Positions 17,001 to 20,306 of a stretch of DNA of 64,000 nt are shown here, piece by piece. Within the stretch, counting starts at the first letter, position 1; each line of letters starts with the position of its first letter. The DNA comes from Octopus sinensis (taxonomy: Eukaryota): contig NC_043001.1 of NCBI RefSeq assembly GCF_006345805.1, positions 51,212,001 to 51,276,000 on the forward strand, in the 5' to 3' direction. Made by a program: the position numbers.

Positions 17001-20000
17001 GGACATAGAAATAATTGGACTGAATACCCGATCGCGTGGTTAAACCATTGGGAGTGAAGGACTCCTAGCGTTTGTTAGGGCATCCTTCTAGGAGAAGGTA
17101 AATCAGGTAACTGGGATAACTTCGACATAAAACCTGCGGCTCAGTGGTTACCGATGATGTTGACTTGTTCTTCTTTTCGGATTATGGCTGCTGTTGCTTA
17201 GTGTGTGGGATTGACTCAGTGCACAGCCTTTCCTCACTTTAAAAAAAATCTTCTTGCACAGGCATTGCATGATAACAACATTGATTAAGCTTCGTGCAAT
17301 GGCCATACTCGATAACAAGGAGGCAGCCACTATGTATGTATGTCATTATTCAGTTTAATTTTCAAATTTCTTGCCAATAGAGAAAGAGCTGGCTTCTAAC
17401 CTACATCCAAGGCTCCTTCACTGGAATTTTGACAATATCAACAGAGTATTTTTGTATGTATGTATATGTGCAGAGTTGTATGTTTTGTTTGATGTATGTA
17501 TGTATGTATGTCATTATTCAGTTTTGTTTAGAGATTTCTTATCAATAGAGAAAGAACCGGTTTCTAACCAAGATCCAAGGCTCCTTCATTGGAATTTCAA
17601 CACCAACTGGGTATTTTTGTATGTATGTATGTAGCCACAGAGGGCTAAACATAGAGGAGACAAACAAGGACAGACAAAGGTATTAAGAAAATTACATCGA
17701 CACCAATGCGTAACTGGTACTTATTTAATCGACCCTGAAAGGATGAAAGGCAAAGTTGACCTCAGCAGAATTTGAACTCAGAATGTAATGGCAGACAAAA
17801 TACCACTAAGCGTTTCACCCAGCATGCTAACAATTCTGCCAGCTCGCTGCCTTTAGAGTAAGAAATATTGGTTTCATTTGGGGCTTATTTTATCAACCCC
17901 AAGAGGATGAAAGGTAAAGTCAACCTCAGCAGAATTTGAACTTAAAACATAAAGAAGGATGAAATACTGATAAGCATTTTGATCAGCATGCCAAGGATTC
18001 TGCCAGCTCACCATCTTTAGAGTAAGAAATATTAAAAAATGATCCTCCAAGCAGAGAAAAATTCAATGAAATATCATTGGTTCTGATTGGCTGCTTGGTA
18101 TATAGAAATGAAGTAAAAAGTGTTAGGTGCAAACCATTTCATTGTTTGTTGAAATATATTTGCCTGCTATTGAGTGAAAGAAAAGAGTAAGAAAACGTGT
18201 TAAAAGGTGAAATTGTTAAATTCAGGGTCAATAAAGCATCAACTGAAATGAAAAGCTAATATATGTTGTGTGAAAGTGTATTAGCACCTATTTTGTTAGT
18301 ACACTTGAAGAAATAAATCAGTAAAATAACTTACTTATAACTTTTATTAAGAATATGAGATGTGAAGAACTTTCTGGTCGATTACACTTAATTTGAATAT
18401 TGTCATGTTCCTTAGTAATAGAAGGGAAAGTGAGAAAAGTAACCTTCTGTCTTCTAGAGCAGTTACTTTTTATTCCTTCGAAAAGCTTATTCTGTGTAAC
18501 GTGAGGAAAAGCTTTCCTACATTCTAAATAAGAGAACAAATAGATATTATTTGTAGATTCCCAGGAAACCTTAACTCCAGGAAAATTGCATTGAAGAGTG
18601 ACTGGTTTGGATAAAAAAGCCTTAATGGTTGTGACATGTGGCACAATTTCATTTTCTGGAAAGAAAAAGAAAATAAAATATAAAATAAACAAATAAAGAA
18701 CTAACGAGGGGGATGCAGCCACTATGTATGTATGTCATTATTCAGTTTAATTTTCAAATTTCTTGCCAATAGAGAATGAGCTGGCTTCTAACCTACATCC
18801 AAGGCTTCTTCACAGGAATTTTGACAATATCAACAGAGTATTTTTGTATGTATATGTGCAGAGTTGTATGTTTTGTTTGATGTATGTATGTATGTCATTA
18901 TTCAGTTTTGTTTAGAGATTTCTTATCAATAGAGAAAGAACCGGTTTCTAACCAAGATCCAAGGCTCCTTCATTGGAATTTCAACACCAACTGGGTATTT
19001 TTGTATGTATGTATGTATGTAGCCACAGAGGGCTAAACATAGAGGAGACAAACAAGGACAGACAAAGGTATTAAGAAAATTACATCGACACCAATGCGTA
19101 ACTGGTACTTATTTAATCGACCCTGAAAGGATGAAAGGCAAAGTTGACCTCAGCAGAATTTGAACTCAGAATGTAATGGCAGACAAAATACCACTAAGCG
19201 TTTCACCCAGCATGCTAACAATTCTGCCAGCTCGCTGCCTTTAGAGTAAGAAATATTGGTTTCATTTGGGGCTTATTTTATCAACCCCAAGAGGATGAAA
19301 GGTAAAGTCAACCTCAGCAGAATTTGAACTTAAAACATAAAGAAGGATGAAATACTGATAAGCATTTTGATCAGCATGCCAAGGATTCTGCCAGCTCACC
19401 ATCTTTAGAGTAAGAAATATTAAAAAATGATCCTCCAAGCAGAGAAAAATTCAATGAAATATCATTGGTTCTGATTGGCTGCTTGGTATATAGAAATGAA
19501 GTAAAAAGTGCTAGGAGCAAACCATTTCATTGTTTGTTGAAATATATTTGCCTGCTATTGAGTGAAAGAAAAGAGTAAGAAAACGTGTTAAAAGGTGAAA
19601 TTGTTAAATTCAGGGTCAATAAAGCATCAACTGAAATGAAAAGCTAATATATGTTGTGTGAAAGTGTATTAGCACCTATTTTGTTAGTACACTTGAAGAA
19701 ATAAATCAGTAAAATAACTTACTTATAACTTTTATTAAGAATATGAGATGTGAAGAACTTCCTGGTCGATTACACTTAATTTGAATATTGTCATGTTCCT
19801 TGGTGATAGAAGGTAAAGTGAGAAATGTAACCTTCTGTTTCCTAGAGCAGTTACTTTTTACTCCTTCAAAAAGCTTATTCTGTGTAACGTGAGGAAAAGC
19901 TTTCCTACATTCTAAATAAGAGAACAAATAAATATTATTTGTAGATTCCCAGGAAACCTTAACTCCAGGAAAATGGCATTGAAGAGTGACTGGTTTGGAT

Positions 20001-20306
20001 AAAAAAGCCTTAATGGTTTTTTCATGTGGCATAATTTCATTTTCTGGAAAGAAAAAGAAAATAAAATATAAAATAAACAAATAAAGAACTAAAATCGTTT
20101 GAAGAAATTAAGAATGGTGATTAGATATTTTTAGTTTGTTTTAGACATTACAGTGAATAAAACGTTGGAGAACTGCCTCTGTGTATGTATACTGATTATT
20201 AAGGAAAATAATTATTGTTTATTAATGAAAAAGCTTAATGAAAGAAAAAGAATCTTTTAACAAGAATTAAGAACTTTGTCATGCCCAGGTTTCTTTTATC
20301 ATCTTT

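What the first reader, a model, noticed from the sequence alone, without database searches (positions are those of the whole stretch)
17323..20092. Duplicated N-terminal Ig exon diverges ~10x more than the co-duplicated intron: candidate diversifying recognition receptor
Seen (hand count): the two 321-nt exon copies differ at ~15 positions (~4.7%). About 9 of these lie in codons that change the amino acid, giving 8 substitutions (A/B: M/V, E/V, K/T, H/N, V/I, K/R, L/F, G/E), and about 6 are synonymous. The ~1010 nt of co-duplicated intron differ by only ~5 substitutions (~0.5%) plus microsatellite slippage. This is the reverse of the neutral expectation. Both exons keep open frames, all four Cys, the Trp and the splice sites. 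Established: concentration of variation in the most distal Ig domain is typical of self/non-self loci such as Hydractinia Alr1/Alr2, amphioxus VCBP and Biomphalaria FREPs. Inference: because synonymous sites are also elevated, simple positive selection after a recent duplication is not enough. Exon-restricted exchange with a paralog or an ancient allele, or intron homogenisation around a retained divergent exon, fits better. This could be an undescribed cephalopod polymorphic Ig receptor system.
Basis: partly seen in the sequence, partly recalled or inferred. Interest (0 to 1): 0.85.

Follow-up and report, generated by a model that had tools for sequence, protein, structure and literature searches.

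The report
Duplicated octopus receptor exon, homogenised intron
An octopus cell-surface receptor gene carries two tandem copies of its outermost domain exon, and the exon copies look older than the intron between them, most likely because gene conversion recently erased the differences in the intron, a pattern already known from other duplicated genes.

Summary
Window 17323-18704 and 18715-20092 are a tandem duplication. Each unit carries a 321-nt phase 1-1 exon on the minus strand (A 18655-18335, B 20043-19723). The exon copies differ at 15 of 321 sites and the co-duplicated intron at 5 of 1053 (Fisher p=1.2e-6).

The gene is Octopus sinensis LOC115211591, a signal peptide, one or two V-like domains, two Pfam Ig domains and a transmembrane tail. 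RefSeq models use B+A, B alone or A alone.

The diversifying-receptor reading is not supported:
- dN/dS is 0.33 and dS is 0.105.
- The 8 replacements are not concentrated in CDR-like loops.
- O. vulgaris models keep 8 of 8 B-specific and 5 of 5 visible A-specific residues, so these are fixed paralog differences older than the species split.
- No third copy or donor paralog turned up in the window or in the protein databases.

The best fit is an old duplication whose central ~0.95 kb (17423-18372, 2 of 942 differences) was recently homogenised. The unit edges (18 of 432) kept their age, including 3 of 100 at the far intronic edge. Whether selection shields the exon, as in primate L/M opsins, or the exon simply lies outside the tract, stays open. 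This is a new member of a known kind, of modest interest.

The parts
17323..18704 (.). Tandem duplication unit A (1382 nt): about 1012 nt of intron, exon A, and 49 nt of upstream intron
   Evidence: MAFFT alignment of the two units; the repeat finder families D2, D3 and D5 with 1388-nt spacing
18705..18714 (.). 10-nt filler at the junction between units A and B, with no counterpart at either outer flank
   Evidence: Flank and junction sequences printed; alignment ends
18715..20092 (.). Tandem duplication unit B (1378 nt)
18335..18655 (-). Exon A: 321 nt, phase 1-1, V-like domain. It is the second ectodomain unit in RefSeq isoform X1 and the only N-terminal unit in isoform X7.
   Evidence: Splice sites and frame; 100% match to XP_036359322.1; isoform sequences; AF2 model and Foldseek hits
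19723..20043 (-). Exon B: 321 nt, phase 1-1, V-like domain. It is the first ectodomain unit in isoform X1 and the only N-terminal unit in isoform X6.
   Evidence: 100% tblastn match of P0003 residues 20-126
17423..18372 (.). Low-divergence central tract in unit A, 2 differences in 942 aligned columns. Its partner in unit B is 18815-19760. Inferred gene-conversion or homogenised tract; it runs 38 nt into the donor end of the exon.
   Evidence: Best two-breakpoint likelihood partition
17323..17422 (.). Far intronic edge of the unit, with 3 differences in 100 nt. This is close to the exon's density.
   Evidence: Fisher against the exon p=0.58; against the rest of the intron p=0.008, with the boundary chosen after seeing the data
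25556..25613 (-). Exon holding the start codon and signal peptide (MMLQQGIILLLFTVISYSS). It is preceded by an AG acceptor and followed by GTAAGT.
   Evidence: tblastn of P0003 residues 1-19, 100%; sequence context
11596..11874 (-). Third ectodomain exon (279 nt, phase 1-1), a Pfam I-set/Ig_3 domain
   Evidence: Pfam I-set 29.4 bits against a cut-off of 23.7; splice context
1450..1770 (-). Fourth ectodomain exon (321 nt, phase 1-1), a Pfam I-set/V-set domain. The transmembrane and tail exons lie beyond the window start.
   Evidence: Pfam I-set 25.4 bits against 23.7; V-set 33 bits in P0003; splice context

Best explanation
A 1.39-kb segment was duplicated in tandem in the Octopus lineage. It holds the exon for the N-terminal V-like domain of an octopod-restricted IgSF membrane receptor (O. 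sinensis LOC115211591). The duplication came after the split from Argonauta and before the O. sinensis / O. vulgaris split. The two units then diverged to roughly 4-10% at neutral sites.

Much later, one or a few interlocus gene-conversion events between the units (or an equivalent unequal exchange) overwrote the central ~0.95 kb, which is almost all repeat-rich intron. That left the tract nearly identical, while both edges of the unit kept their older divergence. The exon sits 49 nt from one edge, so most of it stayed outside the tract.

The exon copies are under purifying selection. Both are spliceable, and annotated transcripts carry B+A, B only or A only.

Shown: the duplication, the mosaic divergence, dN/dS below 1, the paralog-specific residues shared with O. 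vulgaris, and the single domain in the Argonauta model. Inferred: gene conversion as the homogenising process, and its timing. Open: whether selection against converted exons helps keep the exon distinct, as in primate L/M opsins.
For: 1. Mosaic divergence. The exon has 15 of 321 differences and the intron 5 of 1053 (p=1.2e-6). The longest identical run is 692 columns; 3 of 200000 permutations reach it.

2. The best two-breakpoint partition is a low central tract at 17423-18372 (2 of 942) against the edges (18 of 432). Its log-likelihood is -89.13, against -92.33 for the annotated exon/intron split and -104.45 for a single rate. The far intronic edge has 3 of 100 differences, not different from the exon (p=0.58).

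3. Synonymous divergence is high (dS 0.105) and dN/dS is 0.33. The exon copies are therefore old, not fast-evolving.

4. O. vulgaris models CAI9722396.1 and CAI9722397.1 hold both copies, with 8 of 8 B-diagnostic and 5 of 5 visible A-diagnostic residues. B is 102 of 103 identical between the species. The A/B split therefore predates that speciation, and the differences are not consensus errors.

5. The Argonauta hians model GAB1602869.1 has one N-terminal domain. It is equally distant from A (36 of 99 identical) and from B (35 of 99).

6. No donor was found. tblastn of both peptides against the 64-kb window finds only the two copies (next best E=1.5). The 5.8-billion-protein word search found 2 of 26 candidates among longer proteins and 0 of 2 among near-length ones. 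The 1.84-billion-protein HMMER scan found 2 proteins, the O. vulgaris orthologue and the Argonauta one.

7. The interspersed repeats in the intron (449 of 1012 nt) are only 73-85% identical to their other copies in the window. The near-identity of A and B there reflects recent A/B exchange, not young insertions.

8. There is a precedent. In gibbon L/M opsins, exons including synonymous sites are more diverged than introns, and conversion tracts lie mostly in introns (PMC3213168, abstract read). Mosaic divergence from interlocus conversion in tandem paralogues has also been described (bioRxiv 10.1101/2025.10.29.685298, abstract read).
Against: - The edge-against-middle partition was fitted after seeing the data. 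With two extra free breakpoints it beats the annotated exon/intron model by only 3.2 log-likelihood units, so the two cannot be told apart.
- P=0.008 for 3 of 5 intron differences falling in the first 100 nt uses a cut-off chosen after the fact.
- The 49 nt of intron between the exon and the near edge carry 0 differences, where about 2 would be expected at the exon's density. This fits an exon-bounded block slightly better than an edge effect.
- There is no second-species DNA, no population data and no reads. Conversion is therefore inferred from one pair of sequences in one assembly.
- The Argonauta single-domain state rests on one automatic gene model, which could have skipped a copy.
Confidence: 0.58

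Rival explanations
1. Selection-maintained exon pair (opsin-type). Conversion sweeps the whole unit again and again, but haplotypes whose exon has been converted are removed. The A and B domains have distinct functions, and their alternative inclusion gives receptor forms with different binding properties.
For: The high-divergence block at 18373-18644 lies wholly inside the exon, and both flanking intron pieces next to it are identical (0 of 206 at 18129-18334 and 0 of 49 at 18656-18704). The A/B diagnostic residues are conserved in O. vulgaris. RefSeq models X6 (B only), X7 (A only) and X1 (both) exist. The gibbon L/M opsin case is a precedent (abstract).
Against: All 6.5 synonymous differences are retained as well, so retention is by tract rather than by site. 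The far intronic edge is about as diverged as the exon (3 of 100), which selection on the exon does not explain. One pair of sequences cannot show repeated conversion. The isoforms are automatic models whose transcript support I could not see.
Confidence: 0.2
2. Recent duplication that captured two old alleles, or a later exon-restricted import. The exon was under long-term balancing selection, with recombination homogenising the flanks. Unequal exchange between two allelic lineages then fixed both in tandem. Alternatively, one exon copy was later overwritten from a diverged allele or paralog.
For: The exon's dS of 0.105 against an intron divergence of 0.5% is what a balanced exon with recombining flanks would give. 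The N-terminal domain is the fastest-evolving ectodomain unit against Argonauta, at 35-36% identity compared with 58% and 48% for the next two.
Against: No donor paralog was found in the window or in the protein databases. dN/dS of 0.33 shows no excess of replacements. Only 1 of 8 replacements lies in the predicted F-G (CDR3-like) loop and 1 next to the B-C loop (DSSP string). B differs at 1 of 103 residues between O. sinensis and O. vulgaris, which does not point to a hypervariable domain. The 3 of 100 differences at the far intron edge are not explained.
Confidence: 0.12
3. Assembly artefact: two haplotypes of a single-copy exon laid in tandem, or polishing that erased or created differences.
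For: Only one assembly's DNA was seen. Read depth and spanning reads could not be examined.
Against: There is no N anywhere in the window. A 10-nt filler junction sits inside continuous sequence. An independent O. vulgaris annotation has both copies in one gene model, with the same copy-specific residues. RefSeq models join B to A in one reading frame.
Confidence: 0.04
4. Diversifying (positive) selection on a recognition domain after a recent duplication.
For: There are eight amino-acid differences in 106 residues of the outermost domain.
Against: dN/dS is 0.33. Synonymous sites are 20-fold more diverged than the intron (p=1.2e-5). The replacements are spread over the A strand (3), the B-strand end, the D-strand start, the D-E loop, the E-strand end and the F-G loop, rather than concentrated in CDR-like loops.
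Confidence: 0.03

Closest known systems
Primate X-linked L/M opsin tandem duplicates (gibbon study, PMC3213168; abstract read)
   Same: These are tandem paralogs in which the exons, synonymous sites included, are significantly more diverged than the introns. The introns were homogenised by interlocus gene conversion, and the tracts lie mostly in introns.
   Different: Here the duplicated unit is a single exon with part of one intron inside one gene, not a whole gene. There is one sequence pair and no population sample. Selection against exon conversion is not shown. The far intron edge is also diverged, so a purely positional explanation remains open.
Mosaic divergence by interlocus gene conversion in tandem paralogues (Arabidopsis halleri HMA4 model, bioRxiv 10.1101/2025.10.29.685298; abstract read)
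   Same: Effective conversion rates vary along tandem copies, giving alternating homogenised and diverged blocks.
   Different: That case concerns three whole-gene copies in a plant, with positive selection on copy number. Here there are two intragenic units of 1.4 kb.
Tandem exon duplication with alternative use of the copies (Dscam-type variable Ig exon clusters; titles and abstracts seen in the listing)
   Same: An Ig-like domain exon is duplicated in tandem with symmetric phase. Annotated transcripts use one copy or the other (X6, X7).
   Different: There are only two copies. The commonest models (X1-X5) include both copies in series, so use is not mutually exclusive. No evidence was sought or found for docking or selector RNA structures.
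V-type Ig domains of cell-surface receptors (CD4 D1, CD244/2B4, CRTAM, CD96; Foldseek hits)
   Same: The predicted beta-sandwich of exon A superposes on these V domains (TM-score up to 0.70, normalised by query length). The Cys22...Trp31...Cys90 pattern and the position at the membrane-distal end of a type I receptor also match.
   Different: Sequence identity is 11-19% and there is no Pfam hit. An extra Cys45-Cys65 pair is present. The fold rests on one confident model of five and was not reproduced in the whole-protein model.

Membership tests
Immunoglobulin superfamily, V-set-like domain (exon A/B) | Sequence match to a curated Ig profile (Pfam V-set, I-set, ig, Ig_2 or Ig_3) | tested here: not met
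   No Ig family matched at E<=1 for either exon peptide. No stretch in residues 20-233 of P0003 matched at E<=0.01. The PDB profile search matched only profile positions 107 and above, outside this domain.
Immunoglobulin superfamily, V-set-like domain (exon A/B) | Two-sheet beta-sandwich fold that superposes on solved Ig V domains | tested here: inconclusive
   The domain-only AF2 job gave a best model of pLDDT 78.3 and pTM 0.71, but the other four models scored 31-50. Foldseek against the PDB gave at least 500 hits at E<=0.001, and the top ones are V domains (shark UrIg2 V, CD4 D1 at TMq 0.70, CD96, 2B4, CRTAM). The whole-protein job gave pLDDT below 50 for residues 1-128. ESM Atlas neighbours include V-set clusters at 0.91-0.93.
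Immunoglobulin superfamily, V-set-like domain (exon A/B) | Conserved B-strand Cys, C-strand Trp and F-strand Cys, encoded by a phase 1-1 exon (hallmarks recalled from general knowledge) | tested here: met
   C22, W31 and C90 (also C45 and C65) are invariant in A, B, O. vulgaris and Argonauta. The exon is 321 nt and starts and ends in phase 1.
Kin of IRRE / Kirre (the name given to the O. vulgaris model) | Five extracellular Ig domains followed by a transmembrane segment (architecture recalled, not taken from a call) | tested here: not met
   P0003 has two Pfam Ig stretches plus the two V-like units, four in all. The Argonauta protein has three. The exon searches returned only octopod proteins. 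Direct similarity to a Kirre reference was not tested.
FREP (fibrinogen-related proteins of snails) | C-terminal fibrinogen domain after the IgSF domain(s) | tested here: not met
   Pfam scans of P0003 and P0010 list Ig families only. The protein ends in a transmembrane helix (predicted H327-358 in P0008) and a tail.
VCBP (amphioxus/tunicate V-region chitin-binding proteins) | Two V domains followed by a chitin-binding domain; secreted | tested here: not met
   No chitin-binding family appears in the Pfam scan of P0003, and a membrane-spanning helix is predicted.
Polymorphic allorecognition or immune IgSF loci (Hydractinia Alr1/Alr2 type) | High allelic polymorphism concentrated in the distal domain within populations | not testable with these tools
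   Only one assembly's DNA is available. The only cross-species datum is 102 of 103 identical residues for copy B between O. sinensis and O. vulgaris, which does not suggest hypervariability.
Dscam-hv type variable exon cluster | Mutually exclusive splicing of tandem alternative exons | tested here: not met
   RefSeq isoforms X1-X5 contain B followed by A in one protein; only X6 and X7 carry a single copy. These are automatic models, and no transcript data were seen.
Interlocus gene-conversion mosaic between tandem duplicates | Significantly heterogeneous divergence along the paralogous alignment, with a long tract of near-identity | tested here: met
   The central tract has 2 of 942 differences against 18 of 432 outside it. 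The longest identical run is 692 columns, reached in 3 of 200000 permutations.
Interlocus gene-conversion mosaic between tandem duplicates | In the converted tract, paralogs within a species are closer than orthologs between species | not testable with these tools

The most novel reading that the evidence does not exclude
The two V-like exons are kept distinct by selection while the DNA around them is repeatedly homogenised. The octopus uses them combinatorially (B+A, B alone, A alone) to make receptor forms with different ligand or homophilic specificity. This would be a minimal, lineage-specific 'alternative V domain' receptor in a cephalopod. It might even have begun as two balanced alleles that an unequal exchange fixed in tandem.
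Probability: 0.15. Interest if true: 0.55.

Novelty: new member of a known kind. Interest (0 to 1): 0.3.

Why it matters
The case is a clean small example of a rule that matters for genome scans. Between tandem duplicates, 'exon more diverged than intron' usually marks interlocus gene conversion of the non-coding part. It does not mark fast evolution of the coding part.

The locus is also an uncharacterised IgSF receptor seen only in octopods. Its outermost domain has no detectable sequence relatives elsewhere (2 hits among 1.84 billion representatives). Annotated isoforms differ in which copy of that domain they carry.

If the two copies prove to be functionally distinct, the gene would be a tractable entry point to cell-surface recognition in cephalopods. 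On present evidence it is not a polymorphic or diversifying receptor system.

Tried and rejected
- **Pfam on the exon peptides.** No Ig hit. The only row was Zn_ribbon_Com at E=0.2 for B, below its cut-off and treated as noise.
- **Whole-protein AlphaFold job** (P0008 with P0005 and P0010). Mean pLDDT was 44.7 and the N-terminal domain was below 50. It says nothing about the fold and was not used for a fold search.
- **PDB search by sequence profile**. All 19 hits fall on the downstream Ig domains, none on the duplicated domain.
- **Near-length protein search**. None of 2 candidates scored.
- **Rfam on the whole window at gathering thresholds**. No matches, so no known RNA element explains the intron identity.
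- **Search for a third exon copy or donor in the window**. None; the next best tblastn hit has E=1.5.
- **Literature.** 'LOC115211591' matched 0 papers. Two broader searches on octopus or cephalopod Ig/V-set listed nothing on this gene. The one paper that held all the terms (SPLASH, PMC10370119; passages read) mentions V-set only for human and lemur cells.
- **Unequal crossing-over between flanking repeats as the origin of the duplication.** Rejected: no third repeat copy follows unit B, and the junction carries a 10-nt filler.
- **Young transposon insertions as the cause of the intron identity.** Rejected: the repeats are 73-85% identical to their other copies.
- **** failed on a coordinate slip (stop codons in one ORF reference). 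It was re-sent with trimmed coordinates and without that ORF.
- **Joined model.** The window's exons were not joined into a spliced model for any search. The large-database searches were run exon by exon.
- **Unchecked.** Cephalopod genomic DNA from other assemblies, reads, RNA-seq support for the isoforms, and supplementary files of papers.
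Full report
**What is there.** Aligning window 17300-18720 with 18690-20110 shows a head-to-tail duplication. Unit A is 17323-18704 and unit B is 18715-20092, separated by a 10-nt filler. The repeat finder saw the same 1388-nt spacing. The window contains no N.

On the minus strand each unit holds a 321-nt open exon, A at 18655-18335 and B at 20043-19723. Both have identical polypyrimidine/CAG acceptors and GTAAGT donors, and both begin and end in phase 1.

**The count.** Inside the units there are 20 substitutions and three 4-nt microsatellite indels.
- Fifteen substitutions fall in the 321 exon sites.
- Five fall in the 1053 aligned intron sites: 5 of 1004 on the donor side and 0 of 49 on the acceptor side.
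- Fisher's test gives an odds ratio of 10.3 and p=1.2e-6.
- If substitutions 5 nt or less apart are merged into single events, the counts are 11 against 4 and p=5.3e-5.
- A run of 692 identical columns is reached in 3 of 200000 random placements.

**What the gene is.** A search with the exon A peptide for longer proteins returned 2 of 26 candidates.
- One is Octopus sinensis LOC115211591 (100% identity; seven RefSeq isoforms).
- The other is the O. vulgaris models CAI9722396.1 and CAI9722397.1, named 'kin of IRRE 1'.

Mapping isoform X1 (P0003) on the window gives a minus-strand gene with these exons:
- start codon and signal peptide at 25613-25556;
- exon B;
- exon A;
- an Ig exon at 11874-11596;
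- an Ig exon at 1770-1450.

The transmembrane and tail exons lie beyond the window start. All four domain exons are phase 1-1. Models X1-X5 carry B then A in series, X6 carries B alone and X7 carries A alone. These are automatic models, and I could not see their transcript support.

**Is the exon an Ig domain?** Pfam says nothing, either for the peptides or for residues 20-233 inside P0003. The two downstream exons pass the I-set cut-off. A PDB profile search matched only the downstream domains.

An AlphaFold job on exon A, using a four-row alignment, gave one confident model (pLDDT 78.3, pTM 0.71) and four poor ones (31-50). That model is a beta-sandwich whose best Foldseek matches are V-type Ig domains: shark UrIg2 V, CD4 D1 at TM 0.70, CD96, 2B4 and CRTAM, at 11-19% identity. 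ESM Atlas neighbours are unnamed mollusc clusters (0.95-0.96) followed by V-set clusters (0.91-0.93). A whole-protein job was uninformative, with pLDDT below 50 over residues 1-128.

C22, W31 and C90, plus an extra pair C45 and C65, are invariant in A, B, O. vulgaris and Argonauta. I take the domain to be a divergent V-like Ig domain. This is probable, not proven.

**How old are the copies?** Nei-Gojobori counting gives dS 0.105, dN 0.035 and dN/dS 0.33. Synonymous sites alone are about 20 times more diverged than the intron (p=1.2e-5). The exon copies are therefore old and constrained, not young and fast.

The O. vulgaris models keep 8 of 8 B-specific residues and all 5 A-specific residues that are visible in them. 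Copy B is 102 of 103 identical between the two species. The A/B differences therefore predate that speciation. They are real rather than consensus errors, and they are fixed paralog differences rather than demonstrated polymorphism.

The only other relative among 1.84 billion representatives is Argonauta hians GAB1602869.1. It has a single N-terminal domain, equally distant from A (36 of 99) and B (35 of 99). The duplication therefore probably arose within the Octopus lineage.

Against Argonauta, the N-terminal domain is the least conserved ectodomain unit, at 35-36% identity compared with 58% and 48% for the next two.

**Where the differences lie along the unit.** The best two-breakpoint partition is not 'exon against intron'. 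It is a nearly identical central tract at 17423-18372 (2 of 942) against the two ends of the unit (18 of 432). Log-likelihoods are -89.13 for this partition, -92.33 for the annotated exon/intron split and -104.45 for one rate.

Three of the five intron differences sit in the 100 nt at the far edge. That is 3% divergence, not different from the exon (p=0.58).

The gain of 3.2 log-likelihood units costs two fitted breakpoints, and the 100-nt cut-off was chosen after seeing the data (binomial P=0.008). In addition, the 49 intron bases between the exon and the near edge carry no difference. The data therefore cannot separate two readings: 'the exon happens to lie outside a conversion tract' and 'the exon is protected from conversion'.

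**Mechanism proposed.** An old tandem duplication diverged to about 4-10% at neutral sites. Its interior was then recently overwritten by interlocus gene conversion or an equivalent unequal exchange. A tract of about 1 kb inside the homologous block, with unconverted edges, is the usual signature of such an event (general knowledge).

The intron's interspersed repeats (449 of 1012 nt) are only 73-85% identical to their other copies in the window. Their identity between A and B therefore reflects A/B exchange, not young insertions.

The same pattern is described for gibbon L/M opsins: exons, including synonymous sites, are more diverged than introns, and conversion tracts lie mostly in introns (PMC3213168, abstract). 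Mosaic divergence through interlocus conversion has been modelled for tandem HMA4 copies (bioRxiv 10.1101/2025.10.29.685298, abstract).

**Rivals.**
- Selection against converted exons (opsin-type) is compatible with the data and is not tested.
- A recent duplication that captured two old balanced alleles, or an exon-only import, cannot be excluded. However, no donor exists in the window or in the protein databases. dN/dS is below 1. Only one of the eight replacements lies in the predicted F-G loop and one next to the B-C loop.
- Haplotypes assembled in tandem are unlikely, given the gap-free junction and the independent O. vulgaris models.
- Plain diversifying selection is contradicted by the synonymous excess.

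**Comparison with known systems.** The FREP and VCBP architectures are not met: there is no fibrinogen or chitin-binding domain and a membrane anchor is present. Dscam-type mutual exclusivity is not met, because B and A occur in series in X1-X5. Kirre's five-Ig layout (recalled) is not met, with four units here and three in Argonauta. Alr-type polymorphism could not be tested.

No paper in the searchable library names the locus (0 hits). Two wider searches found nothing on it (passages of PMC10370119 read were irrelevant).

**Verdict.** The favoured sub-hypothesis of intron homogenisation is supported. The headline reading, a diversifying or polymorphic recognition receptor, is not. This is a new instance of a known evolutionary pattern in an uncharacterised, octopod-restricted IgSF receptor. 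Interest is modest at 0.3. The boldest reading still open is a selection-maintained pair of alternative V-like exons, at about 0.15.

Noticed in passing
window 18335-18655 (exon A), compared with O. vulgaris proteins P0002 and P0009: Both O. vulgaris models read 15 residues (YPNQSLFNAIFLELR) from a different frame of exon A, then return to the coding frame at QKVTF. This fits a 1-nt length difference in the T6 run of that assembly, or a modelling artefact. If it is real, copy A may be disabled in O. vulgaris.
   Followed up: partly
window 19723-20043 (exon B), residue 47 of the 106-aa peptide: The only B difference between the window and O. vulgaris P0009 is K to D, which needs two base changes in one codon.
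   Followed up: no
window 17619-17860 and 17884-18018; also 3369-3578, 13375-13509, 21086-21306, 34888-35118, 49126-49272, 56059-56277: A SINE-like interspersed repeat occurs twice in each duplicated intron and at least six more times in the window, at 73-85% identity. Rfam gave no match at gathering thresholds.
   Followed up: partly
window 17331-17465 and 17499-17630 (and their partners in unit B): The unit begins with an internal direct repeat of about 135 nt (85% identical) flanked by (TATG)n microsatellites. The three 4-nt indels between A and B lie in these microsatellites.
   Followed up: no
window 62130-62165 (-): The first 12 residues of the O. vulgaris model P0002 (MAKSELALRPHG) match here at 100%. 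This suggests an alternative upstream first exon about 36 kb 5' of the signal-peptide exon.
   Followed up: no
window 51397-51864 (+) and 5137-5538 (+): Transposon remnants are present: an RT_RNaseH_2 domain (E=8.9e-20) and a Tc3-type transposase HTH (E=1.6e-7). Four ORFs at 57.5-59.1 kb (-) and two at 39.3-39.9 kb (-) gave no Pfam hit.
   Followed up: partly
outside the window (cytoplasmic tail of P0003 / P0010): Tyrosine motifs in the tail are conserved between Octopus and Argonauta (P-I/V-Y-A/E-E-I-G-Y and T-Q-N-E-Y-L). This hints at phosphotyrosine signalling. No motif test was run.
   Followed up: no
window 1450-1770 (-): The fourth ectodomain exon is also exactly 321 nt and phase 1-1, like exons A and B. 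It shows no detectable similarity to them in tblastn.
   Followed up: no
protein P0013 (unnamed record): A 317-aa record is 85% identical in the third ectodomain exon. It starts with unrelated residues and lacks the N-terminal domain, so it cannot say whether that organism has the duplication.
   Followed up: no
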